Shown: positions 7,357 through 60,326 of the stretch, piece after piece
Layout: every line of letters starts with the position of its first letter
Position numbering within the stretch: position 1 is the stretch's first letter
NCBI GenBank assembly: GCA_030390025.1
Contig: CM059432.1
Coordinates: 7,192,001 to 7,256,000, forward strand
Direction of reading: 5' to 3'
From: Squalus acanthias
Lineage: Eukaryota
Length of the DNA stretch: 64,000 nt
Translations under genes and position numbers: made by a program
The notes under the pieces: model-generated
Told to the model about the DNA's origin: nothing
Seen by the model: the letters and a program-made list of their open reading frames with translations, nothing else
The model's database searches: none

Positions 7357-7548
7357 AGTGATGTGGAGATGCCGGTGTTGGACGGGGGAGGACAAATGTG
7401 AGAAGTCGCACAACACCAGGTTATAGTCCAACAGTTTTATTTGATATGATCTCTGCACTTCACCTGACGAAGGAGCAGCGCTCCGAAAGCTTGTGATTTC
7501 AAATAAAACTGTTGGACTATAACCTGGTGTTGTGCGACTTCTCACATT
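7357..7548. mobile_element. Palindromic PLE-type insertion, hammerhead family A, inside a CR1 fragment
   Basis: TSD tatcctttagg at 7346-7356 and 7549-7559. Inverted arms about 7394-7443 and 7499-7549. Hammerhead motif lies in the loop. Confidence 0.8.
7460..7496 (+). ncRNA. Minimal type I hammerhead ribozyme motif (family A)
   Basis: tcac CTGACGA a ggagc agc gctcc GAAA gc TT gtga: stem I tcac/gtga, stem II ggagc/gctcc, core boxes intact. Confidence 0.75.
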
Positions 7549-10067
7549 TATCCTTTAGGGGGAGAGAGTCCCAGATTTCCACCACTCTTTGTGTGAAGAA
7601 GTGCCTCCTGACATCGCCCCTGAACAGCCTAGCTCAAATTTTAAGGTTATGCCCCCTTGTTCTGGACTCCCCCAATAATTTCTCGCTATCAACCCTATCA
7701 ACTCCTTTAAATATCTTAAACACCTCAATTAGATCAGACCTTAATCTTTTATACTCGGTCAAAGTGATGGGGACAAACTAAGCGCGTGAGCTGAGGAACG
7801 AGAGGTGGATTTTAATTTTAAATGTAAGGTAATGTGCATTGGAAATTTGCAAGAGGTTTTAAGAAACAAAGGAATAGAAATCTTGGAATAAATTATATTA
7901 AAATAAGAAAAAAAGATAATTGGGGGAGAAGAGAAGAAAAAAGGGAGGACGAGTGTAGCAGAAGTGAAGTGTTTAACATTTTTTTATTTGTATAAAAAGA
8001 ATTGATGTTTTGTTTCAGGTTAATATTACAGTAATAAATCTATTGCTGGAATCTGCGTAAGTATCACTGTAATATTCAGGTTATTTCAGTGTCAGTGTGT
8101 GCCCAGGAAGATGGAGCTTTCCAGAGTTGCTGGTGGTTCCATTGTGAAGAAGGAGTCACAGAGTCAAACTGGTTTTCCTGGGAAGAAAGACATTTGCGAC
8201 GAGGGGACATGGATGATCATGGAATGATATAGCGCAGAAGGAGGCCACTCGGCCCATCGTGCCTGTGTCGGCTCTCTGAAAGAACTATCCAGTTAATCCC
8301 AATCCCCTGCTCTTTTCCCCCATAGCCCTGCAAATTTTTCCCCTTCAACTATTTTTCCGATTCCCTTTTGAAAGTTACTATTGAATCTGCTTCCACCGCC
8401 CTTTCAGGCAGCGCGTTCCAGATCACAACAACTCGCTACGTAAATAAAGTTCTCATCATCTCTGGTTCTCTGGCCAGTTACCTTAAATCTGTGTCCCCTC
8501 TGGTTACTGATCCTCCTGCCACTGGATGGTGTTGACGTAGCCAGGTTATTTATCTTTAAACTTATAATCACGGAACTATGATAGGATTTCCAACCCTCCA
8601 CGGTTACCCTGGAGACTCCAGGACACTGCCGCGAACAACCCAGGAGAAAAATCACAGGGCAATACATTTTTTTTTTAAAAACAATCTTTGAACACTTTGG
8701 TTATTAGTTCTAAAACTATCTGAGATGGGAGAAAAGGCTGTTTGACTGACAGTCATGAATCATTCAATCGGGTAATGACGAGTCTATTCGGTTTCCAATT
8801 GGTTTGGGAAGGCAGGGTGCCGGCAGGATGGACATGTTGGGCGATCAAACACTCCCATCAAACAGCACGGTTCTGGTTCACGACCATTGACGGCTGTCCC
8901 TTCTGTTGCCTGGGCCCCAAGCTCTGGAATTCCCTCCCTAAACCTCTCTGCCTCGCTACCTCTCTCTCCTCCTTTAAGACGCTCCTTCAAACCTACCTCT
9001 TTGACCAAGCTTTTGGTCATCTGCCCTAATATCTCCTTCTGTGGCTCGTTGTCAAATTTTGTTTGATAGTCGCTCCCTGTGAAGCGCCTTGGGACGTTTT
9101 ACTACATTAAAGGTGCTATATAAATACAAGTTGTTGTTGTTAATCTGTCTGGACTATCCTAATCATAACAATAGAATGTAACTGGTAACAGCCAAATAAT
9201 AATAATGGGGTTAAATACCCTGGAATCGTCACTTGATTACCTTCACAGTTAGAAGGGGAATTTGTACTGACTTTATTTTCCTGGATGTTTTACCTCTGGT
9301 CATTCAACCTGTTCAAATAAATTGGGCAGATTGCATCCAGAATTGCACTTGGTTTGTTTGAAGGAGCAGATTTCATTTGTCTGCTCTTATTCCAAGCTTT
9401 GTTATATTTTTAATATTGTGCGTATCACCTCTTCATATATTTGAAATCACAGAATAGAATCATAGAGATTTACGGCACAGAAGGAGGCCATTTGGCCCAT
9501 CCTGTCCGTGCCGGCAGACAAAGAGCTATCCAGCCTAATCCCACTTTCCAGCTCTTGGTCCGTAGCCCTGTAGGTTACGGCACTTCAAGTGCATATCCAA
9601 GTACTTTTTAAATGTGATGAGGGTTCCTGCCTCTACCACCCTTTCAGGCAGTGAGTTCCAGACCCCCATCACCCTCTGGGTGAAAAAATTTCTCCTCAAC
9701 TCCCCTCTAATCCTTCTACCAATTACTTTAAATCTGTGCCCCCTGGTTATTGACTGCTCTGCTAAGGGAATTAGTTCCTTCCCATCCACTCTATCTAGTT
9801 TGTCCAAATGAGTTTTTATGTGTGTTTGTGCAGGGGCATGAAGTAAAAAGAGAAAGGAAAGAAAGACTTGCATTGCTATAGCGGCTTTCACGACCTCCGG
9901 ATGTCCCAAAGCTCTTTCCAACCAATGAAGTACTTTTGAAGTGTAGTCAATGTAGGAAGGAGCAGGATTGATTTCTTATCTGATTATAGGAGTGATACTG
10001 TTCTAACTATATACTTTGTAAAAATACAGCGTTGTGTTGAGTCAGTGTTTCGTGTCTTTCTGTTCAG

Positions 10068-10238
10068 GCACTCTGACATCGATCACTAATCTGGCAACAA
10101 GTTTGGCCCGCAACATGGATCGGCTATCTCTGGATGAAGAGCACTACAACCGGCAAGAGGAATGGCGGAGACAGCTCCCAGACAGCCTGGGGGAAGGTCT
10201 GCGGCAGGGCTTGTCCCGGCTGGGAATCAGTCTGCTGG
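10068..10238 (+). CDS. VPS13B: VPS13B coding exon (171 bp, phase 1-1)
   Basis: tgttcAG acceptor and GTACGG donor. Encodes GTLTSITNLATSLARNMDRLSLDEEHYNRQEEWRRQLPDSLGEGLRQGLSRLGISLL. Confidence 0.96.
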
Positions 10239-12962: not shown

Positions 12963-13133
12963 GTGCCATTGCTGGTATCGTGGACCAGCCGATGCAGAAT
13001 TTCCAGAGGACGTCGGAAGTTTCAGCTGGGCGCAAAGCCAAGGATGTCATCTCTGGCGTGGGCAAAGGCATTGTGGGGGTTTTCACCAAACCGATTGGAG
13101 GGGCCGCCGAGCTCGTCTCACAAACTGGTTATG
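12963..13133 (+). CDS. VPS13B: VPS13B coding exon (171 bp) ending at a GC donor
   Basis: tttccAG acceptor. Encodes GAIAGIVDQPMQNF...GVGKGIVGVFTKPIGGAAELVSQTGY. Donor reads ATG|GCAAGT. Confidence 0.92.
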
Positions 13134-13370
13134 GCAAGTATAGAAGATTCTGTGTTTCATCAAACACTTTCCAGAACACACCACCTCTTCACACAAAGAA
13201 ACACACCTGTAGTCAAGTACTGCTACCAAGGTTAAATTCTTCCCCCCCCCCCCCCCCCCCACCGCCCCAATGATGTAAACTTTTAAACCTGACTTAAACC
13301 GTCACTTTTTTCCACATTTACTGACTGAGCAAAGCAACAAATAAATACAAGATAGTCACTGATAAATCCG

Positions 13371-13723
13371 AGAAGTCGCACAACACCAGGTTATAGTCCA
13401 ACAGCTTTATTTGAAATCACAAGCTTTCGGAGCGCTGCTCCTTCGTCAGGTGAAGTGAAGAGATGCATATAGGCACAGCATATATAGTCAGAGAACACTG
13501 CCAGATGATTACAGTTCTAAGGGCAGTTAGAAAGATTAACTGTAATCATCTGGCAGTGTTCTCTGACTATATATGCTGTGCCGATATGCATCTCTTCACT
13601 TCACCTGACGAAGGAGCAGCCGCTCCGAAAGCTTGTGATTTCAAATAAAGCTGTTGGACTATAACCTGGTGTTGTGCGACTTCTCACATTTGTCCACCCC
13701 AGTCCAACACCGGCATCTCCGCA
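13371..13723. mobile_element. Palindromic PLE-type insertion, family A, with two opposed hammerhead motifs (13417-13453 minus, 13601-13638 plus)
   Basis: TSD tcactgataaatccg at 13356-13370 and 13724-13738. Inverted arms of about 146 bp (13371-13516 and 13538-13685). Splits a CR1 3' fragment. Confidence 0.85.
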
Positions 13724-15205
13724 TCACTGATAAATCCGGAAGGGATTTCAGGAGAAACTTCTTTCCCCAGAGAGTGGTGAGAATGTGGAACTCGCTACCG
13801 CAGGGAGTGGGTGAGGCGAGTTGCATGGATGCATTTATGGGGACGCTGGATTAAGTACATGAGGGAGAAAGGAATAGATGGATATGTTGATAGGGTGAGA
13901 TGAAATAGGGTGGGAGGAGGCTCGTGTGGAGCATAAACACCGGCATGGACCAGTTGGGCCGAACAGCCTGTTTCTGCGCTGTAAATTCTATGTAATACTC
14001 TCCCACGTTTATTCAATAAAAGCAGTATTTCTCGGTTTGCCTAGGATTCCGTCACACAAGCAATTCTCAGTTTGATCTTTTCTTTGAATCTGTAGTGCCT
14101 GAGGTTTTCAATTACTTAATCTGATTCCACTATTTGTAAGGTAGTTTGGCACTATTAGCTAAAGTTACTTATTTTACAAGGACTATACATCAAGTATCAC
14201 TTTCTATATATATTTTTAAGATTATTAAAAGCTACATGTTGATTGGCAAACAAACCAGAGACGAAACATGGAATCTTCCTTCTCCGTATGGCTCAGTAAC
14301 ACACCACCAGTAAATATTTTACATGCGTGATGGCAGCATTCCAAATCCTTGACAATTGCAATGATATTTTAGTCTTAGAAACATAGGAACAGGAGTAGGC
14401 CATTCAGCCCCTCGAGCCTGTTCCGCCATTCAATTAGATCATGGCTGATCTGTATCTTAACTCCATTCACCCACCTTGGCTCCATATCCATTAATACCCT
14501 TATCTAAAAAAAAAATCTATCTCAGTTTTGAAATTTTCAATTGACCTCCAGCCTCAACAGCTTTTTGAGGGAAAGAGTTCCAGACTTCCACGACCCTTTG
14601 TGTGAAGAAGTGCTTCCTGACTTCTTGCGATACTGTGCTTTGCAGGAAGAAATCATTTCCTGAAAAAAAGTTTTTAAACTAAGCTTAATTAGTCCATGGA
14701 ATATTACATCTCTAATAAATATAGCTTTACATAAAATGTACAGCACAGAAACAGGCCATTCGGCCCAACTGGTCCATGCCGGTGTTTATGCTCCACACGA
14801 GCCTCCTCCCACCGCTCTTCATCTGACCCCATCAGCATAACCTTCGAATTCAATAAATGGGAGGAAAAATGCATAGACGTTTATTTGTTGCTTTCCTCCC
14901 CAAAAGGCTCAGTAGTTTTATCCGGCGAGTTGCTGGTTTGTACAGACCAGGAGAATCCCACACTTGATTCCTGGTCTCTGTGAACTTCGCAGAACTTAAC
15001 TGGGGCACATCAATCAACCTCAGCGCCACCGTGTCAGGAAGAGGGAAATCAGCTTGGATTTCTACTCCTGTTAGTTCGAGGATCGTGCTTGGTAGCAAGC
15101 CTTTGTGAACTTGGGATGAGAATAGAAACATGATACTCCTTCTCTCCCCTTCCTCCTCTACCTCACGGACTCAACACTGTTAAAGCTCACACATGAATAA
15201 ACAAA

Positions 15206-15412
15206 TGTGAGAAGTCGCACAAGACCAGGTTATAGTCCAACAGTTTTATTTGAAATCACAAGCTTTCAGAGCGCTGCTCCTTCGCCAGGTGAAGTGACGA
15301 AGGAGCAGCGCTCCGAAAGCTTGTGATTTCAAATAAAACTGTTGGACTATAACCTGGTCTTATGCGACTTCTCACATTTGTCCATCCCAGTCCAACACCG
15401 GCATCTCCACAT
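15206..15412. mobile_element. Palindromic PLE-type insertion, family A
   Basis: Flanking direct repeat catgaataaacaaa at 15192-15205 and 15413-15426, partly overlapping the element ends. Inverted arms of about 90 bp. Both hammerhead cores are damaged. Confidence 0.8.
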
Positions 15413-16829
15413 CATGAATAAACAAAACAAACAAACAGCTTTCACGACCTCAGGACGTCCCAAAGCGCTTTACAATCCAATGAAGTACTTTTGAAGTGTA
15501 GCCACTGTTGTAATGTAAGAAACACAGCAGCCAATTTGCGCACAGAAAGGTCCCACAAACAGCAAATGAGACAATGACCAGATCATCTGTTTTTATTGCT
15601 GTTGGTTGAGGGATAAATATTGGCCAGGACACTGGGAAGATCTCGCCTGCTTTTCTTCAGAATAGTGCCATGGGTTGTTTTATATCCACCTGGGAAGCCA
15701 GACAGGGTCTCGGTTCAACGTCTCACCCGAAAGACGGCACCTCTGACAGTGCAGCACTCGCTCAGTACTGCACCGGGAGTGTCAGCCTAGATTTTGTGCT
15801 CAAGTCTTTGGAGTGGGACTTGAACCCACAACCTTCTGACTCTGAGGCAAGAGTGCTGCCCATTGAGCCACGGCTATGGCCAGCTGGTCAAGGTACTGGA
15901 GGGTAACTGGTGTTTGAGGAACCATACCCCAGGAGGGGAGGCAAGTAAACAATGGAACACTTACTCGTGCTGATGTTTAAAGAATATGGCATTAATCTTT
16001 CCTATAGTTATCCTGAAAACCTTTTGTTTTTGTGACTCATTTTTGCATTTCATATTTGAAATCCTGACTTACTGTGTGCTAGTTACATTTGGGCTCAGCC
16101 ATTACTTAGGATGCCCTATTGAGGCAATGATATTACACAGGGGTCACCGTAAATTGATATCTGAAACTGTAGAAAGGTGTGCTGAGTTTATTAAGCGACT
16201 GCAATTTATAAAGCATTAACAACCAGAAGACAATAATGCAGGTCTGAAGTGTCCACTCACAGGCTGATGTAACCTAGAGCCCTGAGCCTGTGTGATACTG
16301 GAGGAGGAAAAACTCACTTTATCCATTTGACTCAACCTCACATGTGTTTTGAATACTAAACTTATGTTTTTTATTTGTTTTAATGGTGCAATTCTGTTGA
16401 TTTAGTTTAAAGATTAGCCTGCGACCATAATAAGTAATGGATATATTTGGGAAGAGAAATCGTTTCTCATAACGATGCTGCTCAGAAATACTATCCAAGG
16501 GAAATTATCATACTTGAATGTTGAGCTAATGTAGTTGTCATAGTATATAGAAATTAACAATTGTTGCTGCGGTCGTGTTTGTACTGTTATTTAGAAAGGC
16601 TCCCCCCCCCCCCCCTTGCAGGAGTACAGCTGCCTTCCCTTAGCGCTTCTGAGACTTAGCTTTATATATTTTAATTTTTGTCACCGTTTGTATAGCTCTG
16701 CCTTTCACGTCATTTGCCGTTAAAGAGATGAATATCCCTATCAGTCTGTTCCAAACACATTACATCATTTCAGCACCACGTTGCTGCCTGGGTTAAGTAG
16801 AAGTAAGAATCTTGTCTTTATTGCTCTAG

Positions 16830-16932: not shown

Positions 16933-17127
16933 GTAAGAATATTCTGGCAGTCAGTCATTTTTACGATGGCATTATTCATTACATTGCTCTGGCTTTGTAT
17001 CAAACTAGCAGGTCATTTATCTTGGAAAGGTTTGTTTCTTACATGAAATGTTTCAGTTCTGGAATTTTAAATAAAAATTTTTTTTTTTTTATAACTGGTA
17101 TCTGTTCAACATTTTGCATTCTGACAG

Positions 17128-31757: not shown

Positions 31758-32109
31758 GTCTACCCTATCAAACCTTTTCATAATCTTAAAGACCGCTATC
31801 AGGTCACCCCTCTTTTTTGCACCTTCTCACATTTGTCCACCCCAGTCCAACATCTCCACATCATAGAGTTATACAGCACAGAAAGAGGCCCTTCAGCCCA
31901 TCGTGTCCGCAACGGCCATCAAGCCCTGTCTATTCTAATCCCATTTTCCAGCACTTGGTCCGTAGCCTTGTATGCTATGGCATTTCAAGTGCTCATCTAA
32001 ATGCTTCTTGAATGTTTTATAATATGGAGACCAGAGCTGTTCACAGTACTCCAAGTGTGGTCAAAGCAAGGTTCTATACAAGTTTATCATAACATACAAG
32101 TTTAACAAA

Positions 32110-32640
32110 TTGGAATACTGTGTGCAGTTCTGGTCGCCACACTATAGGAAGGATGTGATTGCATTGGAGAGGGTGCAGAGGAGATTCACCTGGGCTGGAG
32201 CGCTTCAGCTATGAAGAGAGGCTGGACAGGCTGGGGTTGTTTTCCTTAGAGCAGTGAAGGCTGAGGGGGGACCTGATTGAGGTGTACAAAATTATGAGGG
32301 GCATAGATAGAGTAGATAGAAAGGAACTTTTCCCCTTAGTAGAGGGGTCAATAACTAGGGGGCATAGTTTCAAGGTAAGGGGCAGAAGGTTTAGAGGGGA
32401 TTCGAGGAAAAACTTTTTCACCCAGAGGGTGGTTGGAATCTGGAACTCACTGCCTGAAAGGGTGGTAGAGGCAGGAACCCTCACAACATTCAAGAAGCAT
32501 TTAGATGAGCACTTGAAACGCCATAGCATACAAGGCTACGGACCAAGTGCTGGAAAATGGGATTAGAATAGACAGGGCTTGATGGCCGGTGCGGACACGA
32601 TGGGCCGAAGGGCCTCTTTCTGTGCTGTATAACTCTATGA
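32110..32640 (+). mobile_element. CR1 LINE 3' fragment
   Basis: ORF 32282-32566: YKIMRGIDRVD...FFTQRVVGIWNSLP. Confidence 0.88.
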
Positions 32641-32731
32641 TGTGGAGATGCCGGTGTTGGACTGGGGTGGACAAATGTGAGAAGTCGCACAACACCAGGT
32701 TATAGTCCAACAGCTGTTGGACTATAACCTG
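32641..32731 (-). mobile_element. Short family A PLE-type tail with a perfect 40-bp palindrome
   Basis: TSD gtataactctatga at 32627-32640 and 32732-32745. Palindrome accaggttatagtccaacag|ctgttggactataacctggt at 32694-32733. Confidence 0.8.
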
Positions 32732-33738
32732 GTATAACTCTATGACTAACATAACCATGTATACCATTCATACATTTATTCTTCAGTCCTCATCGGCAAG
32801 AAGGCCAATTTTATGCCATGGAGACACACTATTGGAAGTTAGATTGAGACCAAGTAGGCTCTTTTTACATTGAATTCTCACCGTTAGTACAGAGTGTGAG
32901 GAGAATATCATCCCATCACTTTGGGATTGATGAGCCCCGATCCTAGAATCATAGAATGATACAGCACAGAAAGAGGCCATTCGGCCCATCGTGTCTGTGC
33001 CAGCTCTTTGAAAGAGCTATCCAATTAGTCCCACTCCCCTGTTCTTTCCCCATGGCCCTGCAAATGTTTTCTTTTTAAGTATTGATCCAATTCCCTTTTG
33101 AAAGTTACTACTGAATCTGCTTCCACCACCCTTTCAGGCAGTGCATTACAGATTATAACAACTCGCTGCGTAAAACATGTTTCCTGATCTCGCCTTTGGT
33201 TCTTTTGCCAATTACCTTAAATCTGTGTCCTCTGGTTACCGTCCCTTCTGCCAATGGAAACAGTTTCTCCTTATTTACTCTGTCAAAACCCTTCAAGAAT
33301 TCGATCATCTCTATCAAATCTCCCCTTAAACTTCTCTACTCTAAGGAGAACAACCCCAGTTTCTCTAGTCTCTCCACGTAACTAAAGTATCGTGAAAGAA
33401 ATGAAAGTATTGTGTACCAACCCACCCGGCCACCTAGTTCCCCGAAGAATTTGTCTTTTACAATATATTCTTTCAGAACTTTGTAAGAAATTGGTATTTC
33501 AATACAGTTGAGGATTTTGCAAGAGAATTAAGTAATGGTAGTTGTATTTTTGTCTTCCTACATTTCATGTCAACAACACTCCTTCCATTGCTAATTCTAT
33601 TCAGTTTCCTCTTCTTGGCCAAACACTTTAACCCCCTGCCCCCTCCCACCCAATAGTTCTAAATTATCTCCAAACCCCAATACTTGAATACTATTACCAT
33701 AGCTGTTACACCACTGGACAGGATATAAGAGAAAGCTG

Positions 33739-34218
33739 AAATAAAAACAGAAAATGCTGGAAATACTCAGCAGGTCAGGCAGCATCTGTGGGGAGAGAAA
33801 CAGGGTTAACGTTTCAGGTCGATGACCCTTCGTCAGAACTGGAAAAGGCTGGAGATGGAACAGGTTTTTAAGCAAGTGCAGGGACAGGGAAAGGGGGGAG
33901 GGGAGGAAAGAACAAAAGGAAAGGTCTGTGATAGGGTGGAAGGCAGGAGAGATTAAGAGACAAAAGGGATGATGTAAGGCAAAAGAAGATGGTAATAGGA
34001 CAAGTTAAGAAACAAAAGATGGCTCTAGATGAAGTGTAAATGGCACTGGCAGAGTGAAAGACAGCTGCCATGTGTGAGAGAGAGAAAAAAAATGGAAAAA
34101 AAAGATAGGGGCAGAGGTTATGGTCTGAAATTGTTGAACTCGATGTTGAGTCCAGAAGGCTGTAAAGTGCCTAATCGAAAGATGAGGTGCTGTTCCTCGA
34201 GCTTCCGTTGAGCTTTTG
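33739..34218 (-). mobile_element. 5'-truncated Penelope-like element, family B (end of GIY-YIG ORF plus 3' terminal region with hammerhead at about 33804-33840)
   Basis: TSD tataagagaaagctg at 33724-33738 and 34219-34233. The reverse strand is homologous to the endonuclease end at 53740-53840 and to the tail at 55945-56286. Confidence 0.85.
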
Positions 34219-37217: not shown

Positions 37218-38845
37218 GTACCTGCAGATTGGAGGGTGGCAAATGTAACCCCACTATTTAAAAAAGGAGGGAGAGAGAAAACAGGGAACTACAGACCGGT
37301 TAGCTTAACATCAGTAGTAGGGTAAATGCTAGAGTCTATTATAAAGGATGTGATAACGGGATTAGACAAAGTCAACATGGATTTATGAAAGGGAAATCGT
37401 GTTTGACAAACCTACTGGAGTTTTTTGAGGATGTAACTGGTAGAATAGACAAGGGAGTACCAGTGGATGTGGTGTATTTGGATTTTCAGAAGGCCTTTGA
37501 TAAAGTCCCACATAAGAGGTTAGTGAATGGCGGAGCAGGCTCGAATGGGCCGACTCCTGCTCCTATTTTTCTAAGTTTCTATAGAATCTTACAGCACAGA
37601 AGGAGGCCATTCGGCCCATCGTGCCTGTGCCGGCTCTTTGAAAGAGCTCTCCACTTAGTCCCACTCCCCCCTGCTCTTTATACATAGCCCTCCAAATTTT
37701 TTCCCTTTCAAGTATTTATCCAATTCCCTTTTGAAAGTTACAATTGAATTTGCTTCCACCTCTCTTTCAGGCAGCGCATTCCAGATCACAACAACTCGCT
37801 GCGTTAAAAAAACAAAATTCTCCTCATCTCCCCCTCTGGTTCTTTTGTCAATCACCTTAACTCTGTATCCTCTGGTTACCAACCCTCCTACCAATGGAAA
37901 CATTTTCTCCTTTATTTACTCTGCCAAAACCCTTCATGATTTTGAACACCTCTATCAAATCTCCCCTTAACCTGCTCTGCTCTAAGGAGGACAATCCCAG
38001 CTTCTCCAGTCTCTCCACATAACCGATGTTCCTTTACTGGAGTTGATAGCCAGAATAAATGCCTCAGCTGCCTTTTGTCAAGGCACAATTTAAACAGCTG
38101 CTAAAATACATAGTAACATATCCAGCCAACTATGAGGAAATAATAATGAAGCAGCGATTACTGTTAACCTGCAGGTACAGCAAGCAATTAGGAAAGCAAA
38201 ATGGTATGTTGGCCTTTATTACAAGAAGATTTGAGTATAAGAGTAAAGACGTGTTACTGCAATTATATAGGGCCCTGGTGAGACCACACCTGGAGTATTG
38301 TCTACAGTTTTGGTCTCCTTACTTGAGGAAAGACATACTTGCCATAGAGGGAGTGCAACGAAGGTTCACCAGACTGATTCCTGGGATGGGGCGGATTGTC
38401 CTTTGAGGAGAGATTGAGTAGACTAGGCCTATATTCTCTGGAGTTTAGAAGAATGAGAGGTGATCTCATTGAAACGTACAAAATTCTTGCAGGGCTTGAC
38501 AGGGTAGATGCAGTGAGGATGTTTCCCCTGGCCGGGGAGTCTAGAACCAGGGGTCACAGTCTCAGAATAAGGGGTCGGCCATTTAGGACTGAGATGAGGA
38601 GAAATTTCTTCACTCAGAGGGTGGTGAATCTTTGGAATTCTCTACCCCAGAGGGCCGTGGAGGCTCGTTGGGTATATTCAAGACGGAGATCGATAGATTT
38701 TTGGATATCAACGGAATCGAGGGATATGGCGATAGAGCAGGAAAGTGGAGTTGAGGTGGAAGATCAGCCATGATCTCATTGAATGGCGGAGCAGGCTCAT
38801 GGGGCCGAATGGCCGACTCCTGCTCCTATTTCTTATGTTCTTACG
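37218..38845. mobile_element. Cluster of CR1 fragments (+ 37218-37585, - 37585-38030, + 38170-38845)
   Basis: WRVANVTPLFKKG...NYRPVSLTSV, YLDFQKAFDKVPH and LVRPHLEYC motifs. Confidence 0.87.
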
Positions 38846-39149
38846 TTATTGGAGGAGAATACCTATCCAATTTTAGGAACCTAGGAACAGGAGTAGGCCA
38901 TTCAGCCCCTCGATAATGTTCCGCCATTGGATTAGATCATGGCTGATCTGGAAGTAAAGTTCAACGGTGCTGATTCTGTGGTAATGGTTTAACTGTGGGA
39001 TAAGGTTGTAATGGTCTAGTATTTGAATGTATATCCTGAAAAAATAGAAAAAAATTGCTTCTAAGGATCCTCTGCTGATATGAAAAAGTTTAATATATAT
39101 AATTTTATTCTGCATTATTCCCGGAAAGCTGGTATACAGCAGACATTTA

Positions 39150-46023: not shown

Positions 46024-46249
46024 AGCAAAATACTGCGGATGCTGGAAATCCGAAATAACAACAGAAAACGCTGGAAAAACTCAGCAGGCCAGGCAGCATC
46101 CGTGGAGAGAGAAAGAGAGTTGACGTTTCAGGTCGATGACCTTTCATCAGAACTTTCATCAGGTCATCGACCTGAAACGTCAACTCTCTTTCTCTCTCCA
46201 CGGATGCTGCCTGGCCTGCTGAGTTTTTCCAGCGTTTTCTGTTGTTATT
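46024..46249. mobile_element. Palindromic family B PLE insertion
   Basis: TSD ccagtgggttcatt at 46010-46023 and 46250-46263. 89-bp inverted arms at 46054-46142 and 46161-46249. Confidence 0.85.
46118..46154 (-). ncRNA. Minimal type I hammerhead ribozyme motif (family B, canonical CUGAUGA and GUC)
   Basis: Minus strand reads agtt CTGATGA a aggtc atc gacct GAAA cg TC aact. Confidence 0.8.
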
Positions 46250-47186
46250 CCAGTGGGTTCATTGTTCTGCTTCTCTTCTGAGATGGAGGTGAGAAGTGCT
46301 TTTGCATATTCTGGATGACTGACAGTTCTTTTGTCACAGCCAACTGCCATGCGTTCTCTGGAGTTTTAACAAACCAGTTTTTCACATATCTGCACAGGGT
46401 GATCCCATCACAGGGAAAATACCCTCAGAAAAATCCCATAAATTCCACAAAATATTCTTGACTGAGTCCATTCTTCAAACAGAGAATTTGCGATCTCTTC
46501 ACCCCTCCGTGTCCTAACTCGCACCAAGTCCCGCTCACTCATCACCCCTGTGCTCGCTGATCTACATTGGCCCCCGGTCCAGTAATGCCTCGATTTTTTT
46601 TAATTCCCATCCTTGTTTTCAAATCCGTCCATGGCCACACCCCCTCCCTAGCTCTGTAACCTCCTCCAGCCCTACAACCCCTCCGAGATCTCTGCGCTCC
46701 TTCAGTTTTGGCCTCTTGAGCACCCTCGATTTCCTTCACTCTATCATTGGTGGCCGTGCCTTCAGCTGCCGAGGCCCTAAGCTCTGGAATTCCCTCCCTA
46801 AACCTCTCTGCCTCTCTCTCCTCCTTATAAATCGTTCCTTAAAACCTACCTCTTTGACCAAGCGTTTGGTCACCCGTCCTAATATCTCCTGATGTGGCTC
46901 GGTGTCAAATTTTGTTTGGTAACGCTCCTGTGAAGCACCTTGGGACGTTTTACTGCATTAAAGGCGCTATATGAATGTTGTTGATGATAGTAAGAAAACG
47001 GAAAGTACTGTTAATGCACAGCATGTATGCCAGCATCTGAAACTGAAAGATGAGGTAACATTTCGGGCAGGATTCGCACTGAAACAAGAGTCCCACATGA
47101 AACATTTTTTAAAAATGTATTTGTTCACGGGATGTGGGCGTCGCTGGCAAGGCTGGCATTTATTGCCCATCCCTATATTGCCCTTG

Positions 47187-47376
47187 TCTTGGCTGTGCTC
47201 TTAGTGTGTCTTTGATGTAGGGAAATATTTGAATAGATTTTGTCTGTGTTTAAATTGTGAATTCTGGGAGATTCTCTCACTGCTAACTTACCTGAGGAAG
47301 GAGCGACAGCTCCGAAAGCTTGTAAAATTAAATAAATCTGTTGGACTATAACCTGGTGTTGTGCGACTTCTCATTT
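47187..47376 (+). mobile_element. Divergent family A PLE-type insertion with a hammerhead motif at 47288-47325
   Basis: TSD ttgcccttg at 47178-47186 and 47377-47385. Motif ttac CTGAGGA a ggagc gaca gctcc GAAA gc TT gtaa, followed by the shared family A tail. Confidence 0.78.
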
Positions 47377-50290
47377 TTGCCCTTGAGAAGGTGGTGGTGA
47401 GCCGCCTTCTTGAACCGCTGCAGTCCGTGTGGTGAAGGTGCTCCCACAGTGCTGACTTTGTCGTAGTGGTTTGGTACAACGGCGTGTCTCACTAGGCCAT
47501 TTCAGAGGGCAGGGAAGAGTCAACCACGTTGAGTTACATATAGGCCAGACCGGGTAAGGGCAGCAGATTTCCTTCCCTAAAGGACATTAGTGAACCAGTT
47601 GTTTTTTTTTTACAACAATCTGATAGTTTCATGGTCACCGTTACTAGCTTTTTAATTACTAGATTTATTTAATTAACTGAATTTAAATTCCCCTCAACTC
47701 ACTTCTCCGGATTATTCGTCCGGGCCTCTGGATTACTGGTCCAGTAACATAACCACTATATACTCCCGTACCCGCTGTAACATAAACCTGTATCTTCTCT
47801 TTCAGAAGCTCTTGTGTGAATTTGTTTCTTTTAGATTCTGATTTCTAGCACTTGGCCGTTTTTTTTTTCCCCTTACAGATTGACAGAAGACAAATAAATA
47901 CATGGATTTTTGTTCCGAATTGAATTTAACTGATGGAAAATCCTGCTGACCTCCACACCTGCATTCCTGATGTGGGATTTAGTGGCATGCTTTGGCAGCA
48001 CGGATTTGTACAACGTACTCTGCAGCGAGGCAGTAATTAGATGTGGCACTTTCTGTAAATACAACGTGTGCGAACAGCTCGGATTTTATGCTGGTTCCCG
48101 CTGGTACTTTATTTTTTTTCCAGTCTATCGGCTATATATTTTTTTTACACGGGAACTAGTAAGGAGTTCACCCTGCTGCGTGTGCCCTCTTCATGTTTCC
48201 TACATATTTGGCATGTGGCGCATGGCGCTCCTCATGTTTCATATGTTGGACCACACAACAATGTGGAAAGACGTTTTGTGTAGAAATCTGTCTTGCTGCA
48301 TTTCAGGTCTGGTTCCAAACACCAAAAAGAGATTGATCGTAAACCGCAACCAACGTTTAAACAATTATATTACAGCATCGGCTGTGGCTCAGTGGGCAGT
48401 GCACTCTCTCGCCTCTTGAGTCAGAATGGTTCTGGGTTCAAAGTCCCACTCCGGAGACTTGAGCACAAAAAAAAATCTAGGCTGACACACTCCCAGCGCA
48501 GCACCGAGGGAGCGCTGCACTGTCAGAGGTGCCGTCTTTCGGATGAGACGTTAAAAACCGAGGCCCCGTCTGCCCCTCTCGGGTGGACGTAAAAGATCCC
48601 GTGCCCACTATTTCGAAGAAGAGCAGGGGAAGTTCTCCCCGGTGTCCTGGGGCCAATATTTATTCCTCAATCAACATCACTAAAAAAAAACAGATTATCT
48701 GGTCATTATCACATTGCTGTTTGTGGGAGCTTGCTGTGCGCAAAATTGGCTGCCGCGTTTCCCTACATTACGACAGCGACTACACTTTATCAGGGCAATA
48801 TGTTCAGTCAGTTTTTTTTAAATATTTTTCTACGAAGCTGCTGGCGACCCACTCTTGCAAAGTGCATAACAATACTTAATGAATCACGATGATTGACCGT
48901 TTGAATTACATTTTAATGGCCAAGTATTTATCACCAAGACTGGTCGACTTCCTGTGGTGTTGCTCACCGGTAGACCAGGATCTGGAGTGCAGTTTCTGAT
49001 GTTTATCGCACTTTCCCTGCAGTCTAACTACGACAGCTGTTCACCCGTCTCTTGTAGTATAACAAATTTACTGAATCATGGGGCCAGAATCTGCTGCCAA
49101 AAATAACGGTGAGTTCGACGGCGCTCGCCGCTGTTTGTGTACCAATCGTCCAGCAAACTTGCGGCGAGGAAGAGGTACCCGGTGAGTTGCGAATCCGCTG
49201 TTGGCCTCGTGGAAACGAAAGCTCACCCTGACCTCCCCGTGAGTTTCAAGAAATTGCTGCCTTTGCACAATAATTGCCCATTAAACTCGCCGCAGAAAGT
49301 TAGGGTTTGTTACTCAACGGTGTAAATACCTTTTTAATGTTATGTTCCTGCAATGCCACTCAAACTCTTTGGCCCAGAAAGGGAACAGTTGAAACTGTGG
49401 GGTCTCATTCCTGCAGGTAGTAAATCGTTCTTAGAGATATATAACATTTTTAATGTTTTAATATTTTTCTTCATTCTCATTCCTGTCTCTTCTTTTCTCT
49501 CTCTCTCTTAATCCAATCTTTCTTTCTCTCTCTTTCTGTACCTGATTTGGCTCTAATTCACCCTATTTCTTTCTCCGTTGTTCCTCTGTTTCTTTCTCAA
49601 TATTAAATCTCGTTGGTTAAGGAGATAGACTGTTGGTCCTGCCATTCACCAAGGTCCCAGATACCCCGCTGCCCTTGCCGCAAAAATTTTTTCGAGCTGA
49701 AGGGTGAGGGAAAAGTCTAACTAACGGGGCGGGCCGCGAGAATGGGTTTCCCGCAGGCCCTGCTGACTTTAACCGCGGGGCCAGGTTTGCATCTGAAGCT
49801 TCTGTTTCCCGCCCGCAGCCAGCCAGATGGAGAGGTTGGCTGGCTCCGGGCGAGTAGGCCTGTGGCACTAGGCTGCACAGAGGAGGGAGGGAGGGATCGG
49901 GTGGGGGCTGGTGCCGGCCTCCAGAGGACCAGGGGGGAGGGGGGAGGCAAGAGGTCGTGGCCGTCGAGCGACCAGGAGGGGGGGAGGCAAGAGGTCGAGG
50001 TCGGTCACCAGAGGTTCAGGCCAGCCTCAGGATCATCAGTGGGGGGTGGGGGGTCCAGGAAGGCGATTAGAAGCCTCGTGAGGGGGTCTCTGATCGCAGG
50101 GGTGGGCTAGGCAGGGACCCTGGATCCAGGAGGTAGGTGTAAAGGCACTTACCTCCTGGATGCAGCAGTCCCCGCCTTGCTGTAACTGCAGGGTTTTACG
50201 AAGTGTGTGAAACCCGACCAGATGCAGTTAAAAACAAAATGGTGGTTAAAGAAGCGGCTTCCCGCCTCATCGTAATATTTAAATTGTGTC

Positions 50291-52924: not shown

Positions 52925-53885
52925 CTTCGACTCTTCCCTTCCCTTCATCGACTTCTCTATCTCCATTTGTGGGGATAGGCTAACATCCACTATAAGCTCA
53001 CTGACTCCCACAGCTATCTGGACTACACTTCCTCTCACCCCGCTTCCTGTCAGGACTCTATTCCATTCTCCTAGTTACTCCGTCACCGCCGCATCTGTTC
53101 TGATGCTGCCACCTTCCGTACCAGTGCTTCCGACATGTCTTCATTTTTCCTCAACCGAGGATTCCCCTCTACCGTGGTTGACACGGCCCTTGACTGTGTC
53201 CGTTCCTTTTCCCGTACTTCTGCTCTCACCCCTTCCCCTCCCTCCCAGAACCACGATAGGGTTTCCCCTTGTCCTCGCCTTCCAACCCACCAGCCTCCAC
53301 ATTCAACGGATCATCCTCCGCCATTTCCACCACCCCTCCCTCCCCCCCCCCCACCGTTCAGCATTCTGAAGGGGCCATTCCCTCCACAACACCCTGGTCC
53401 ACTCCTCTATCACCCCAACACCCACTCCCCTTCTCACAGCACCTTCCTGTGCAAGTGCAGGAGATGCAAGACCTACCCCTTTGCCTGCTCCATTCCCACC
53501 GTCCACGGCCGCAGGTGAAACAGCAATTTACTTATACTTCTTTCAATTTAGTATACTGTATTCCCTGCTCATGATGTGGTCTCCTCTACACTGCAGGGAC
53601 CAAATGCAGATTGGGTGACCGCTTTGCGGAACACCTCCATTCAGTCTCCAAGCATGACCCCGACCTTCACGTCCCCTGTCATTTTAATTCTCCGGACCAC
53701 TCCCACTCTGTCCTCGGCCTCTTACACTGTTCCAATGAAGCTCAACGTAAGCTCGAGGAACAGCACCTCATCTTTCGATTAGGCACCTTTACAGCCTTCT
53801 GGACTCAACATCGAGTTCAACAATTTCAGACCATAATCTCTGTCCCTATTTTTTCGGACAGCAGTTGTTGGCAATGATTCTACTA
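52925..53885 (+). mobile_element. Degenerate Penelope-like element ORF (RT C-terminal/thumb region plus GIY-YIG endonuclease), family B
   Basis: Manual translation gives LPFIDFSISI...HYKLTDSHSYLDYTSSHPASCQDSIPFS, then NLVYCIPCS*CGLLY...LGDRFAEHL...HFNSPDHS...RKLEEQHLIFRLGT, with stops and frameshifts. Confidence 0.88.
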
Positions 53886-53889
53886 TATT

Positions 53890-55397: not shown

Positions 55398-55944
55398 CCT
55401 CACGCCTCGGCTGTGATCTTTGGTAGCGCCCCCTGACTAACCGCCGGACGCTATGTCAGACAGGGTCAGGGGGGCCTACCTGCGGCCGGGGCGGCACAAA
55501 TTAAAGGGGCGGTGCCGGGCGGCCATTTTTGTTGCTGGCCGCCTTCCAGCACCTGCCCCCGTTGCCGTTCTCGGCCTCCTGAGCAGCCCCCTTGCGGAGT
55601 GCCGGCTGCGCTCCGTGAGCCTGGCACTTCTCTTGAGTGCTGGGCTCTTTTGCCGGCACTCCCGGTCCCTGGTGGCCCAGCTGGGCCCCGGGTCGCGCTG
55701 CGCTAGGCCCCTCCCCTTTAAGAAGGGGAGGAAGGCCTGCAGTACCGCGGCACGATATTCACTCGCAGCGCCCCAAGAGGGAGGCAGGCGCTTCCGGTAG
55801 TACCCCGCCTCCGTCTTGGGGCGCTACCGGTGAATTTTGGCCGCGGGGGCGCTAATTTTTCCGGGACACTAAAAGTAACCCCCCCCCCCCTCCAACGAAG
55901 TTAGTGCCCCAAAGGGGGCGCGACCCAATTTTCCCCCTTGACTC

Positions 55945-56286
55945 TCTTCCTATTTACACCTCCTCCAGACCCATCTTTTGTTTCTTTACTTGTCCCATTA
56001 CCATCTCATTTTGCCTTCCAACATCATCCCTTTTGTCATTTAATCTCTCCTGCCTTCCACCCCATCACAGACCTTCCCTTTTGTTCTTTACTCCCCTCCC
56101 CCCTTTCCCTGCCCCTACACTTGCTTAAAATCTGTTACATCTCCAACTTTTTCCAGTTCTGACGAAGGGTCATCGACCTGAAACGTTAACTCTGTTTCTC
56201 TCTCCACAGATGCTGTCTGACCCGCTGAGTATTTCCAGCATTTTCTGTTTTTATTTCAGATTTTCAACATCCGCAGTGTTTTTGCT
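55945..56286 (+). mobile_element. 3' terminal part of the same family B PLE (hammerhead motif 56155-56191)
   Basis: Collinear continuation of the 53885 breakpoint when compared with the uninterrupted copies at 33739-34218 and 56744-57202. Motif agtt CTGACGA a gggtc atc gacct GAAA cg TT aact. Confidence 0.82.
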
Positions 56287-56743
56287 TGTGGATTATACCC
56301 GTCCCCTGTCCAGTGAGCCTGAGAGAGAATTGGGCTGAGAGTTCGGTTTTCCAAAATGCACTCCGCATTCACTTGGGACAGTGTCCAAGGAATCACGTAT
56401 ATCAAGCTATCATTCTAGAAAAACCAATCTGGGTTGTGTGTGTCTGTGAAAGCTCAGTGACACTGGAGTGGGGAAAGTGCAAGCAATGGGAGGCACCTTC
56501 CACCTGTTGGAAAATGTTTTGCTTGGGCGAAACCAGGCAGAAAATTGAGTTTTGGGCGGAAATTAAGTGTTGGTTGAACTTCTGCCAGTTCGTGTTGAAC
56601 TGGGCAGAGAAAGAAAAAAAAGAGCTTTTTCCGCACATTCACGAAATACAGCAATTAGGCCAATTATTAAGGGGTGGGTCAGCCCATTATCCACTATGAC
56701 TTCAGCATTTCCACAAGTTTGGAAAAAAGAAAAAGAAATGGAA

Positions 56744-57202
56744 AAGCAAAATACTGAGGGATGCTGTAAATCTGAAATAAAAACAGAAAATGCTGGCAAC
56801 ATTCAGCAGGTCAGGCAGCATCTGTGGGGAGAGAGAAACAGAGTTAATGTTTCAGGTCGATGACCCTTCGTCAGAACTGGACAAAGTTGGAGATGGAACA
56901 GGTTTTTAAGCAAATGTAGGGGCAGGGAAAGGGGGAGGGGAGGAAAGAACAAAAGGGAAGGTCTGTGATAGGATGGGAGGCAGGAGAGATTAAGAGGCAA
57001 AAGGGATGATGGTGCAAGGCAAAAGGAGATGGTAATGGGACAAGTTAAGAAACAAAAGATGACTCTAGGTGAAGTGTAAATGGCACTGGCAGAATGATCG
57101 ACAGCTGCCATGTGAGCGAGAAAAGAAATAATAGGGGCAGAGGTTATGGTCTGAAATTGTTGAACTCGATGTTGAGTCCAGAAGGCTGTAAAGTGCTTAT
57201 CG
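56744..57202 (-). mobile_element. 5'-truncated family B PLE (hammerhead motif 56842-56878)
   Basis: TSD aaagaaatggaa at 56732-56743 and 57203-57214. Closely similar to 33739-34218. Confidence 0.85.
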
Positions 57203-57714
57203 AAAGAAATGGAACCTGGCTGAGAAGCCACACTGCCCGCAAAGAAGGGCAGACAAACGAAGTTTCCACCTTGTGCCTATTTCTCGCTGTCTGCTACTTT
57301 GTGTTTATTCGTTCATGGGATGTGGGCGTCGCTGGCAAGGCCAGTATTTATTGCCCATCCTGAATGCCTCTGAGAAAGGAGGAAAGGTTTTATTTTCCTA
57401 GTGAGATGGCTCACTTGAGTTCATTACACCAACTGAATCAATTTAATCATAGAATCATACAGCACAGAAGGAGGCCATTCGGCCCCTCGTGCCTGTGCCG
57501 GCTCTTTGGTAGAGCGATCCAGTTAGTCCCACATCCCCCCTGCTCTTTCCACATAGGCCAGCAATTTTTTTCCCCCTTTCAAGTCTTTATCCAATTCCCT
57601 TTTGAAAGTTACTATTGAATCTGCTTCCACCGCCCTTTTCAGGCAGCGCGTTCCAGATCATCATAACTTGCTGGGTGAAAATAAATTCTCCTCATCTGCC
57701 CTCAAGTTTCTACA

Positions 57715-58785
57715 GTTACAGCAGGGCCTTGGTGAGACCCCACCTGGAGTACTGTGTGCAGTTTTGGTCTCCTTACCTAAGGGAGGATATACTTGGCATA
57801 GAGGGAGTGCAGCGAAGGTTCACCAGACTGATTCCTGGGATGGCAGGACTGTCGTATGAGGAGAGATTGGGTCGACTAGGCCTGTATTCACTAGAGTTTA
57901 GAAGAATGAGAGGGGATCTCATTGAAACGTATAAAATTCTGACAGGGCTTGACAGACTGGATGCTGGGAGGATGTTTCCCCTGGCTGGGGGTGGGGGGGG
58001 GGGGTCTAGAATGAGGGGTCACAGTCTCAGGATACAGGGTAGGACATTTAGGACTGAGATGAGGAGAAATTTCTTCACTCAGAGGGTGGTGAACCTGTGG
58101 AATTCTCTACCACAGAAGGCTGTGGAGGCCAAGTCACTGAATATATTTACGAAGGAGATAGATAGATTTCTAGACGCAAAAGGCGTCAAGGGGTATGGGG
58201 AGAGAGTGGGAATATGGTATTGAGATAGAGGATCAGCCATGATCATGTTGAATGGTGGAGCTGGCTCGAAGGGCCGAATGGCCGACTCCTGCTCCTATTT
58301 TTCTATGTTTCATCTCCCCTCTGGTTCTTTTGCCCGTTATTTTAAATCTGTGTCCTCTGGTTACCGACCCTCCTGCCACTGAAAACAGTTTCTCCCTATT
58401 TACCCTATCAAAACCTCTCACAATTTTTAATATTAAATCATGAGGTTTCTGGACAGAGTAGATAGAGAGAAACTGTTCCCATTGGAGGCAGGGTCGAGAA
58501 CCAGAGGAACACAGATTTAAGGTGATTGGCCGAAGAACCAAAGGTGACATGAGGAAAAACTTTTTTACGCAGCGAGTGGTGAGGATCTGGAATGCACTGC
58601 CTGAAAGGGTGGTGGAGGCAGACTCAATTGTGGCTTTCAAAAGGGAGTTGGATAAGTACCTGACGGAAAAAAATTTGCAGGGCTACGGGGAAAGGGCTGG
58701 GGAGTGGGACTAGCTGAAGTGCTCTTGCAGAGAGCCGGAACGGGCTGAATAGCAGCCTTCTGTGCTGTAACCATTCTATGATTCT
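57715..58785. mobile_element. CR1 fragment cluster
   Basis: ORFs 57615-58223 (+), 58522-58713 (+) and a short minus-strand piece at about 58310-58430 all encode CR1 ORF2 C-terminal peptide. Confidence 0.87.
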
Positions 58786-59119
58786 AAGATTCCCTGCTGT
58801 AAGGAGAATGATTCCAGCGTCTCCAGTCTCTCCCCTTAATGTGGGTGGTCTGCCCACAGAATCTTTCGTGCCATCACACTTGATATGGTGCTGGAGAATG
58901 CTGTGGATTTTTTCCCTCTTCAAACCTTATCACCCACATTGGCCTCTCGTCCAGCTGATTCCCCAGATGTGTTTCAGAAACCTATTTCAAGAGGACAAGA
59001 TCAGGTTTGGGGAGATGACATCAAAAGCAGTTTAACGCACAAGAGATTAAGACAACCGAAAATGTTGTTGTCATAGCTGGAACCACTTTTTGATCCTCAT
59101 TGCATCTCATGACAAGAAA

Positions 59120-59580
59120 TAAAGCCTTGTATTTATACAGCGCCTTTCACGACCACCGGACGTCCCAAAGCGTTTTACAGTCAATGAAGTACTTTTTGAA
59201 GTGGAGTCACTGCTGTAATGTAGGAAACCCAGCAATTTGCACACAGCAAGCTCCCACAAACAGCAATGCGATAATCACCAGGTAATCTGTTTTAGTGATG
59301 TTGATCGAGGGATAAATATTGGCCCCAGGACACTGGGGAGAACTCCCGCTGCTCCTCTTCGAAATAGTGGCCGTGGGATCTTTTATTGTCCACCTGAGAG
59401 AGCAGATGGGGCCTTCGGTTTAAGGTCTCTTCTGAAAGAAGGCACCTCCGACAGTGCAGCGGGCTCCCTCAGTACTGCACTGGGAGTGTCAGCCTAGATT
59501 GTGCTCAAGCCTCTGGAGTGGGACTTGAACCCACGACCTTCTGACTCAGAGGCGAGGCTGCTGCCAACGGTGCCACGGAT
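59120..59580 (-). mobile_element. Near full-length Deu-domain tRNA SINE
   Basis: Reverse complement of the same family. Confidence 0.8.
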
Positions 59581-59833
59581 ACATGAGATCCAGCATTGCT
59601 AGAACAATGATTGCTATGGGGAAAGGGCAGGGGAGTGGGACAAGCTGAGAGCTGGCATGGTCTCGATGGGCCAAATGGCCGCCTTCCGTGCTGTAACCAT
59701 TTTATGATTCTACGTACAAGAACAAGTCTACCTAACGGCAGACGCTGCTCGTTGCATTGCCACAGCAAAATCTGGCCCATTGAGTGAGGCACAGTTGTCC
59801 CCTCAAGGACTGCTCTTCCTCTTCCAATACCAG

Positions 59834-60326
59834 TGTGAGAAGTCGCCCAACACCAGGTTATAGTCCAACAGCTTTATTTGAAATCACAAGCTTTCGGAGC
59901 GCTGCTCCTTCGTCAGGTGAAGTGAAGAGATGCATATAGGCACAGCATGTATAGTCAGAGAACACTGCCAGATGATTACAGTTAATCTTTCCAACTGCCC
60001 TTTATCACACCTCGGCAGAGAGATAATCACGGCAATTGATGTAATGTTTTCCTGACTGACCTGTTTGGACACCATCCACGCCTTTGATTGCCGTGATTAT
60101 CTCTCTGCCGAGGTGTGATAAAGGGCAGTTAGAAAGATTAACTGTAATCATCTGGCAGTGTTCTCTGACTATATATGCTGTGCCTATATGCATCTCTTCA
60201 CTTCACCTGACGAAGGAGCAGCGCTCGAAAGCTTGTGATTTCAAATAAAGCTGTCGGACTATAACCTGGTGTTGTGTGACTTCTCACATTTGTCCACCCC
60301 AGTCCAACACCGGCATCTCCACATCA
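59834..60326. mobile_element. Largest palindromic family A insertion (hammerhead motifs 59884-59920 minus, 60203-60238 plus)
   Basis: TSD ttccaatacYag at 59822-59833 and 60327-60338. Inverted arms of about 203 bp (59834-60036 and 60087-60288) with a 50-bp spacer. Confidence 0.85.

What the first reader, a model, noticed from the sequence alone, without database searches (positions are those of the whole stretch)
7357..60326. Dispersed family of palindromic, hammerhead-ribozyme-bearing mini-retroelements (family A)
Seen in sequence: six insertions (7357, 13371, 15206, 32641, 47187, 59834) share a non-coding cassette. In the longest copies it reads TATATAT-like box, about 30 nt, tcacCTGACGAaggagcagcgctccGAAAgcTTgtga, AATAAA, then a conserved tail of about 80 nt. 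Five of the six are fold-backs with arms from 20 to about 203 bp, and all have 9-15 bp flanking direct repeats. Established knowledge: Penelope-like elements carry minimal type I hammerheads in their pseudo-LTRs and often integrate with an inverted truncated pLTR. Inference: this is a recently active non-autonomous PLE- or retrozyme-like family. It looks like a MITE but moves by reverse transcription, since the TSD length is variable. No ORF for this family is visible in the window.
Basis: partly seen in the sequence, partly recalled or inferred. Interest (0 to 1): 0.85.

Follow-up and report, generated by a model that had tools for sequence, protein, structure and literature searches.

The report
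Shark Penelope retroelement's short fold-back copies
These short hairpin-shaped insertions are the end pieces of a common shark jumping gene of the known Penelope class, and most of the shortest copies start at one fixed spot, which likely marks where its copying enzyme runs off the start of the element's own messenger RNA.

Summary
All six insertions are real and carry 9-15 bp target duplications. Four hold an intact minimal hammerhead motif, one a damaged one, one none. They are not a separate non-autonomous family. The cassette is the 3' pseudo-LTR of a 3.1-kb Neptune-type Penelope-like element (reverse transcriptase, zinc-finger linker, GIY-YIG endonuclease), found joined to it elsewhere in this shark-like genome, where one 35-mer has 64,776 exact hits. 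Fold-backs, 'tail' and variable duplications are described for the class, and the scan noted such fold-backs before in other shark DNA.

Two regularities were not found in print. First, of 57 arms reaching the ribozyme's 5' edge, 38 start in a 10-nt window at an initiator-like A, 30 nt below the TATA box; only 1 of 54 unselected arms starts near the ribozyme cut site. Second, 40 of 41 fold-backs pair one tailed with one tail-less arm. Likely mechanism: both nicked DNA strands prime reverse transcription at two internal sites near the start codon of uncleaved mRNA and run off its 5' end. The start site is predicted, not measured, and one subfamily lacks the boundary. Interest 0.42.

The parts
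7359..7549 (.). Fold-back insertion: tailed arm 7359-7447 on the - strand (no ribozyme), tail-less arm 7444-7549 on the + strand; 11-bp TSD; sits inside another repeat
7460..7496 (+). Minimal type I hammerhead motif; predicted cut after CUU between 7492 and 7493; initiator-like A at 7457
13370..13726 (.). Fold-back insertion: tail-less arm on - (13370 to about 13520), tailed arm on + (about 13520-13726); TSD 13-15 bp
13568..13600 (+). Predicted core promoter: TATATAT at 13568, initiator-like TCACT with its A at 13598 (30 nt downstream)
   Evidence: promoter role inferred
13601..13638 (+). Hammerhead motif, + arm
13417..13453 (-). Hammerhead motif, inverted arm
15206..15415 (.). Short-class fold-back: both arms start near the predicted +1; no intact hammerhead; 14-bp TSD
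31815..31863 (+). Seventh remnant (tail only), part of an inverted duplication of 32485-32692; no TSD
32638..32733 (.). Small fold-back: tailed arm 32638-32713 on -, 20-bp inverted arm 32714-32733; no hammerhead; 14-bp TSD
47187..47377 (+). Single tail-less arm of the younger subfamily B; hammerhead at 47288-47325 with compensated stem I (TTAC/GTAA); 9-bp TSD; empty site seen in paralogous repeats
59834..60327 (.). Longest fold-back: tail-less arm 59834-60036 on - (intact hammerhead 59884-59920), tailed arm 60036-60327 on + (TATA 60170, initiator-like A 60200, hammerhead 60203-60238 with 1-nt deletion); 9-bp exact TSD

Best explanation
The six insertions are 3'-end pieces of an autonomous Neptune-type Penelope-like retrotransposon, and the abundant short fold-backs are likely run-off reverse transcripts of the 5' end of that element's uncleaved mRNA, likely primed from both nicked strands of the target DNA. 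Shown: the cassette is the repeat that flanks a reverse transcriptase / zinc-finger / GIY-YIG ORF, its tail ends at the start codon, and copies share two 3' end positions, have variable TSDs, a sharp 5' boundary and a one-tail-per-fold-back rule. Inferred: (1) Pol II starts at the initiator-like A 30 nt below the TATA box of the upstream pseudo-LTR, so the mRNA begins with the hammerhead. (2) The protein makes staggered nicks about 8-15 bp apart. (3) One 3'-OH primes at the distal site next to the AUG (tailed arm), the other about 35 nt upstream (tail-less arm), sometimes helped by short pairing with the RNA. (4) Each cDNA runs off after about 130 or 95 nt and the two join by microhomology, head to head. 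Long copies would come from tandem or circular RNA. Short copies lack the TATA box and would be dead ends. The ribozyme likely has not cut in the templates that made the short copies.
For: ORF linkage: (5 of 20 long loci have pLTR-ORF-pLTR; L068 also has an inverted tail-less piece and a TSD). Domains: RVT_1 above cut-off; GLKF, DKG, YIDD, CX4CXXC and VVY..C..C..YIG..H..H motifs aligned with 23 relatives; 3 of 3 relatives tested pass Pfam GIY-YIG. TSD >=8 bp at 35 of 52 complete loci versus 24 of 2652 mismatched flank pairs. 5' boundary: 21 of 54 unselected arms in a 16-nt window, mode on the A (p<=1e-4 against smooth truncation); replicated in 40 further loci, where 38 of 57 arms start at -5..+4, then 2, 3 and 2 in the next three 10-nt bins. 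Only 1 of 54 arms starts near the cut site. One tail per fold-back: 13 of 14, 27 of 27, 5 of 5 in the window. Tailed ends run >=5 nt into the ORF start in 16 of 47 short versus 11 of 74 longer arms (p=0.024), and >=10 nt in 5 of 121 (chance about 2e-4 each). Subfamily B, with a similar ribozyme but no TATATA box, lacks the boundary (0 of 14 versus 22 of 40), which argues against a stop caused by the ribozyme fold. In vitro precedent: internal initiation at two sites, extension of both strands, uncleaved RNA as main template (PMC11167929).
Against: The transcription start is predicted from motifs, not measured. The boundary is spread over about 10 nt and lies only 3 nt from the 5' strand of stem I, so a structure-linked stop is not excluded; in the second family (C) the two positions coincide. 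Subfamily B is the youngest and shows no boundary at its own initiator-like motif, so the model is not general. None of the 20 long loci had an intact ORF from its start codon behind a pLTR. The family's own endonuclease scored below the Pfam cut-off (E=0.0068 for one copy, no hit for another). The arm samples come mostly from the first 14 Mb of one chromosome, and the 40-locus set was chosen for an intact subfamily-A hammerhead. D. virilis Penelope uses an internal TATA-less promoter (PMC2377424, passages); if that held here, short copies could be self-propagating.
Confidence: 0.6

Rival explanations
1. Ordinary 5' truncation of a Penelope-like element, with the boundary caused by the reverse transcriptase stopping or switching template at the hammerhead's 5' edge, and the inverted arm made by self-priming at a palindrome.
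For: The boundary lies within 3 nt of stem I in subfamily A and on it in family C. Self-priming was proposed for inverted pLTRs (PMC3846280, passages). A few junctions are short palindromes (L170, L227).
Against: Subfamily B has the same 4-bp stem I and no boundary. The boundary is also seen in single-arm copies (L185, L205, L216, L223). It lies on the far side of the structure from an advancing enzyme. Simple self-priming does not predict one tailed plus one tail-less arm in 40 of 41 cases.
Confidence: 0.25
2. A non-autonomous, SINE- or retrozyme-like family: short ribozyme RNAs made from solo pseudo-LTRs or from the short copies themselves, moved in trans by the Penelope protein.
For: A discrete short class exists and is common: none of 9 insertions in 399.5 kb of random genome reached the ORF. 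Non-LTR retrozymes are reported as derived from PLE pseudo-LTRs (10.64898/2026.07.22.740005).
Against: Short arms share their common variants with long arms (41 of 76 have the same masked haplotype; the one haplotype confined to short arms has its ribozyme variant in ORF-linked L079). Short copies lack the TATA box. Their tailed ends often run into the ORF start, which points to a pLTR-ORF junction as template. No tandem arrays of the unit were seen in the loci examined; retrozymes are defined by tandem units.
Confidence: 0.12
3. A MITE-like DNA transposon with terminal inverted repeats.
For: Palindromic shape, small size, high copy number.
Against: TSDs vary from 8 to 17 bp. The arms are unequal and the outer ends differ by the tail. 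Many copies have one arm only. The sequence is joined to a reverse transcriptase ORF.
Confidence: 0.01

Closest known systems
Neptune-clade Penelope-like elements (C-terminal GIY-YIG, CX2-5CxxC linker; PMC8557442, passages)
   Same: Single RT-EN ORF of about 890 codons, GxKF and DKG motifs, linker zinc finger, CCHH endonuclease, partial-tandem pseudo-LTRs, inverted truncated copy, 30-40 bp tail at one end, hammerhead in the pLTR.
   Different: No microsatellite target bias was evident in the flanks printed (not tested formally). A fixed 5' boundary for short copies was not described in the passages read. Neptune versus Nematis was not resolved by a tree.
PAc, Poseidon element of Anolis carolinensis (PMC11167929, main text read)
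   Same: Two internal reverse-transcription start sites about a tail's length apart near the pLTR-ORF junction; both target strands cut and extended; uncleaved RNA as main template.
   Different: In PAc the hammerhead overlaps the start codon and the tail lies inside the ORF; here both lie upstream and the tail ends at the ATG. PAc is Poseidon clade; activity here is not tested.
Adineta vaga Penelope insertions (PMC3846280, passages)
   Same: Direct plus inverted pLTR, 31-bp tail, 8-10 bp TSDs, TATA box about 20 bp before an initiator-like TCACT, solo pLTRs.
   Different: Low copy number there; solo pLTRs and inversions were ascribed to recombination and self-priming, not to run-off.
Animal non-LTR retrozymes (10.64898/2026.07.22.740005, parts 1-3 of 5)
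   Same: Non-coding, type I hammerhead, related to PLE pseudo-LTRs.
   Different: Retrozymes are head-to-tail tandem units with a ribozyme in each; these copies are single or head-to-head and colinear with an autonomous element.

Membership tests
Penelope-like element (EN+) | Single ORF with PLE-type reverse transcriptase | tested here: met
   RVT_1 E=8e-9, above cut-off; DKG, GLKF, YIDD motifs; 893-codon open frame in L070
Penelope-like element (EN+) | C-terminal GIY-YIG endonuclease with CCHH motif | tested here: met
   Motifs aligned; Pfam GIY-YIG E=0.0068, below cut-off, for L094 and no hit for L070; 3 of 3 relatives pass the cut-off. No fold could be predicted.
Penelope-like element (EN+) | Pseudo-LTR from partial tandem; inverted truncated copy; 30-40 bp tail | tested here: met
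   5 of 20 long loci pLTR-ORF-pLTR; L068 full anatomy; tail-less ends mostly 32-44 nt short of the tailed end
Penelope-like element (EN+) | Variable-length target-site duplication | tested here: met
   35 of 52 loci with 8-17 bp versus 0.9% in control
Neptune clade | CX2-5CxxC linker between RT and EN | tested here: met
   CHGNLCxTC; the linker is shared with Nematis (PMC8557442)
Neptune clade | RT phylogeny groups with named Neptune elements | not testable with these tools
   No named reference PLE proteins were available; nearest relatives are unnamed shark and turtle proteins
Minimal type I hammerhead ribozyme | CUGANGA / GAAA / NUH core, stems I and II, one unpaired base before stem II, palindromic helix III remnant | tested here: met
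   104 of 111 anchored arms fit the core; variation falls on N7, loop 2 and H17 (U or C); C-G to U-A change in stem I with U-G intermediates; 52 of 52 cells paired in 6 variants, 1 compensated pair, covariation modest (26 of 500 shuffles). Rfam models do not detect it.
Minimal type I hammerhead ribozyme | Self-cleavage as monomer, dimer or with protein help | not testable with these tools
   Folding only: stems form in the isolated 37-mer, probability 0.06-0.08 in the 93-nt context, 0.4-0.7 in a 200-nt context; co-folding two copies did not give the canonical dimer
Non-LTR retrozyme | Head-to-tail tandem units, each with a hammerhead | tested here: not met
   No such arrays in the loci examined; whole genome not screened
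MITE | Fixed TSD and equal terminal inverted repeats | tested here: not met

The most novel reading that the evidence does not exclude
Tens of thousands of these copies are a genomic record of the Penelope reaction in vivo: 'strong-stop-like' cDNAs that start at two internal sites beside the start codon, run off the capped 5' end of uncleaved mRNA, and are joined in pairs from the two nicked strands. This would explain inverted pseudo-LTRs, the one-sided tail, and why minimal hammerheads litter animal genomes as isolated or back-to-back motifs.
Probability: 0.5. Interest if true: 0.65.

Novelty: new member of a known kind. Interest (0 to 1): 0.42.

Why it matters
As an element it is ordinary: one more Penelope-like family with the described anatomy, and Penelope-like elements are already reported as expanded in a shark (10.1101/443036, passages). 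The value is mechanistic. How these elements form inverted repeats and tails, and what their hammerheads do, are stated as open in PMC8557442 and PMC11167929. A young family with tens of thousands of copies gives sharp, testable predictions: where transcription starts, where the two priming sites are, that both strands prime, and that the short templates are uncut. It also warns annotators that such copies look like MITEs or miRNA hairpins and can be mistaken for independent non-autonomous families.

Tried and rejected
Rfam scan: no hammerhead family among 20 matches at E<=5. PDB sequence search: only weak reverse transcriptase hits, E>=0.41. A DNA search with the 81-base core found nothing because very common words are skipped; an exact pattern was used instead. 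No structure prediction could be run, so the endonuclease rests on motifs and relatives. Co-folding two 37-mers gave an intermolecular stem II swap, not the canonical dimer: no support either way. Subfamily B as a second test of the start-site boundary was negative: 27 of 32 listed ribozyme hits also carry the upstream 35-mer (my cross-count). Comparing genome-wide counts (17,700 for the A hammerhead; 3,748 for the A TATA region) agrees with a step but is confounded by subfamily mix, so I do not rely on it. A cap-derived G at the boundary was considered; the junctions are equally explained by microhomology. Public runs: only assembled contigs, with RNA status guessed. They hold the family in four coded organisms, and one shows many loose ends 4-6 nt from the boundary, a weak hint only; they cannot show expression, strand or cleavage. 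Lunse et al. (dimeric PLE hammerheads) could not be read; I know it only through a review's passages. Supplement file 1 of PMC4209133 and the supplements of the bioRxiv preprint could not be seen and may list shark elements; Repbase and Dfam could not be searched, so this family may already be named.
Full report
1. The observation. Five are head-to-head fold-backs with shorter arms of 20-203 bp, and all six have exact flanking repeats of 9-14 bp by script. For two of them, paralogous repeats in the window show the empty site. The ribozyme motif is intact in four insertions (7357, 13371 on both arms, 47187, 59834 on one arm), damaged in 15206 and absent in 32641. A seventh remnant lies at 31815-31863. 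Rfam does not see the motif, but a minimal-hammerhead descriptor gave 11 hits in 399.5 kb of random genome against 0 in ten shuffles.

2. What it is. The window lies in a 3.7-Gb genome. The family's protein has its closest relatives in sharks: 91% Heptranchias perlo, 85% Scyliorhinus torazame, 80% Mustelus asterias, among 1060 hits. Loci fetched with the cassette share a 3' end and extend upstream by different lengths; L023 and L018 carry reverse transcriptase sequence. A search with the RT region gave 1176 candidates. Of 20 long loci, five read pLTR-ORF-pLTR, with the tail ending directly at the ATG. L068 has the full described anatomy: inverted tail-less piece, partial tandem, ORF with one frameshift, 3' pLTR, tail, TSD. 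None of the 20 had an intact ORF from the ATG behind a pLTR; L070 has an open frame of 893 codons but has lost its start. The protein has RVT_1 above cut-off, GLKF, DKG and YIDD motifs, a CX4CXXC linker and a GIY-YIG/CCHH endonuclease pattern. Pfam GIY-YIG is weak for the family itself and passes in 3 of 3 relatives. By the definitions in PMC8557442 (passages) this is Neptune-type; no tree was possible. The window copies are 94-97% identical to the 3' end of L068, except 47187 at 86%, which belongs to a younger subfamily B. One 35-mer has 64,776 exact matches, control 0. Nine insertions in 399.5 kb extrapolate, by my arithmetic, to roughly 40,000-160,000.

3. Integration marks. TSDs of 8-17 bp were found at 35 of 52 complete loci (4 of 56 dropped as cut by the locus edge), against 24 of 2652 mismatched pairs. 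There are two 3' end positions about 35 nt apart. Fold-backs pair one of each: 13 of 14, 27 of 27, 5 of 5 in the window.

4. The ribozyme. 104 of 111 anchored arms fit the core. Variation falls on N7, loop 2 (3-9 nt) and H17, with a C-G to U-A change in stem I and U-G intermediates. In six variants all 52 cells pair, with modest covariation. The AGCU palindrome at helix III suggests dimer use, as for other PLE hammerheads (PMC4209133, parts 1-2 of 4). Folding predicts the active stems in isolation but mostly not in the 93-nt context. Activity is untested.

5. The 5' boundary. Among 54 arms picked only by a motif downstream of the cut site, 21 start in one 16-nt window, with the mode on the A of TCACT, 30 nt below TATATAT; 16 run past 390 nt; 1 starts near the cut site. 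TATA-to-initiator spacing is 30-33 nt in most TATATA-bearing subfamilies and 25-27 nt in two loci; the -30 rule and the YYANWYY initiator consensus are recalled, and PMC3846280 notes the same TATA/TCACT pair in rotifer pLTRs (passages). In 40 further loci chosen for an intact subfamily-A hammerhead, 38 of the 57 arms that reach +4 start at -5..+4, then 2, 3 and 2 in the next 10-nt bins. Tailed ends run into the ORF start more often in short than in longer arms (16 of 47 versus 11 of 74 at >=5 nt, p=0.024), and five of 121 match for >=10 nt, partly inside the TSD. This points to a template on which the tail is followed by the ORF. Against generality: subfamily B shows no boundary (0 of 14 versus 22 of 40). 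Family C shows a boundary that coincides with both an initiator-like A and stem I.

6. Mechanism. Shown: identity, ends, TSDs, boundary, tail rule. Inferred: transcription from +1; staggered nicks; priming at two internal sites, one per strand; run-off; joining by microhomology. This matches the in vitro behaviour of the anole element PAc, which starts reverse transcription at two internal sites, extends both strands, and uses mainly uncleaved RNA (PMC11167929, parts 1-2 of 4). Rivals: a structure-linked stop with self-priming (0.25); a non-autonomous family moved in trans (0.12; short and long arms share variants); a MITE (0.01).

7. Known versus new. Inverted pLTRs, one-sided tails, 8-10 bp TSDs and back-to-back minimal hammerheads are all described (PMC3846280, PMC8557442, PMC4209133, PMC8969392 passages). 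Two earlier notes of this scan read similar fold-backs in other shark-like genomes the same way. Seven searches of the held library turned up no description of a start-site-anchored short class, of a near-strict tail rule, or of this shark family. I read only parts of the papers named; subscription papers, Repbase, Dfam and some supplements were out of reach.

8. Verdict. A real feature and a new member of a known kind. Interest 0.42, carried by the mechanistic regularities; 0.65 if the run-off model is confirmed (probability about 0.5).

Noticed in passing
window 33731-34145 (-), 46024-46253 (fold-back), 55952-56294 (+), 56744-57081 (-): A second, unrelated hammerhead-bearing Penelope-like family (C): stem I AGTT/AACT, palindrome AACGTT. 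It is joined to a PLE ORF end in L106, L109 and L115; 20 pieces in 399.5 kb of random genome. Its arms also stop at the ribozyme's 5' edge: none start between -46 and -4 relative to the core, six at -4..-1. By eye a TTAAAA box lies 30 nt before that A.
   Followed up: partly
window 52985-53224: Decayed ORF fragment of a Penelope-like element (26% identity to this family's protein, E=3e-4), resembling family C.
   Followed up: partly
window 31815-32016 and 32485-32692: Inverted duplication (94%) that includes the tail of the 32641 insertion and the adjacent repeat end; origin unexplained.
   Followed up: partly
window 47187-47377; L084-L103: Subfamily B is very young: 40 scored places are 100% identical over 191 bases, with a closely similar ORF but a different 3' UTR.
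   Followed up: yes
window 3467-4047, 38761-38949, 58310-58552: Other fold-back arrangements of unrelated repeats seen in the self-comparison.
   Followed up: no
L015, L029, L099, L139, L211, L220 flanks: Several independent copies are followed by nearly the same flank beginning TTTATAAATAGAGG or TTCATAAATAGAGG, apparently one site in a LINE-like repeat; a possible AT-rich target preference.
   Followed up: no
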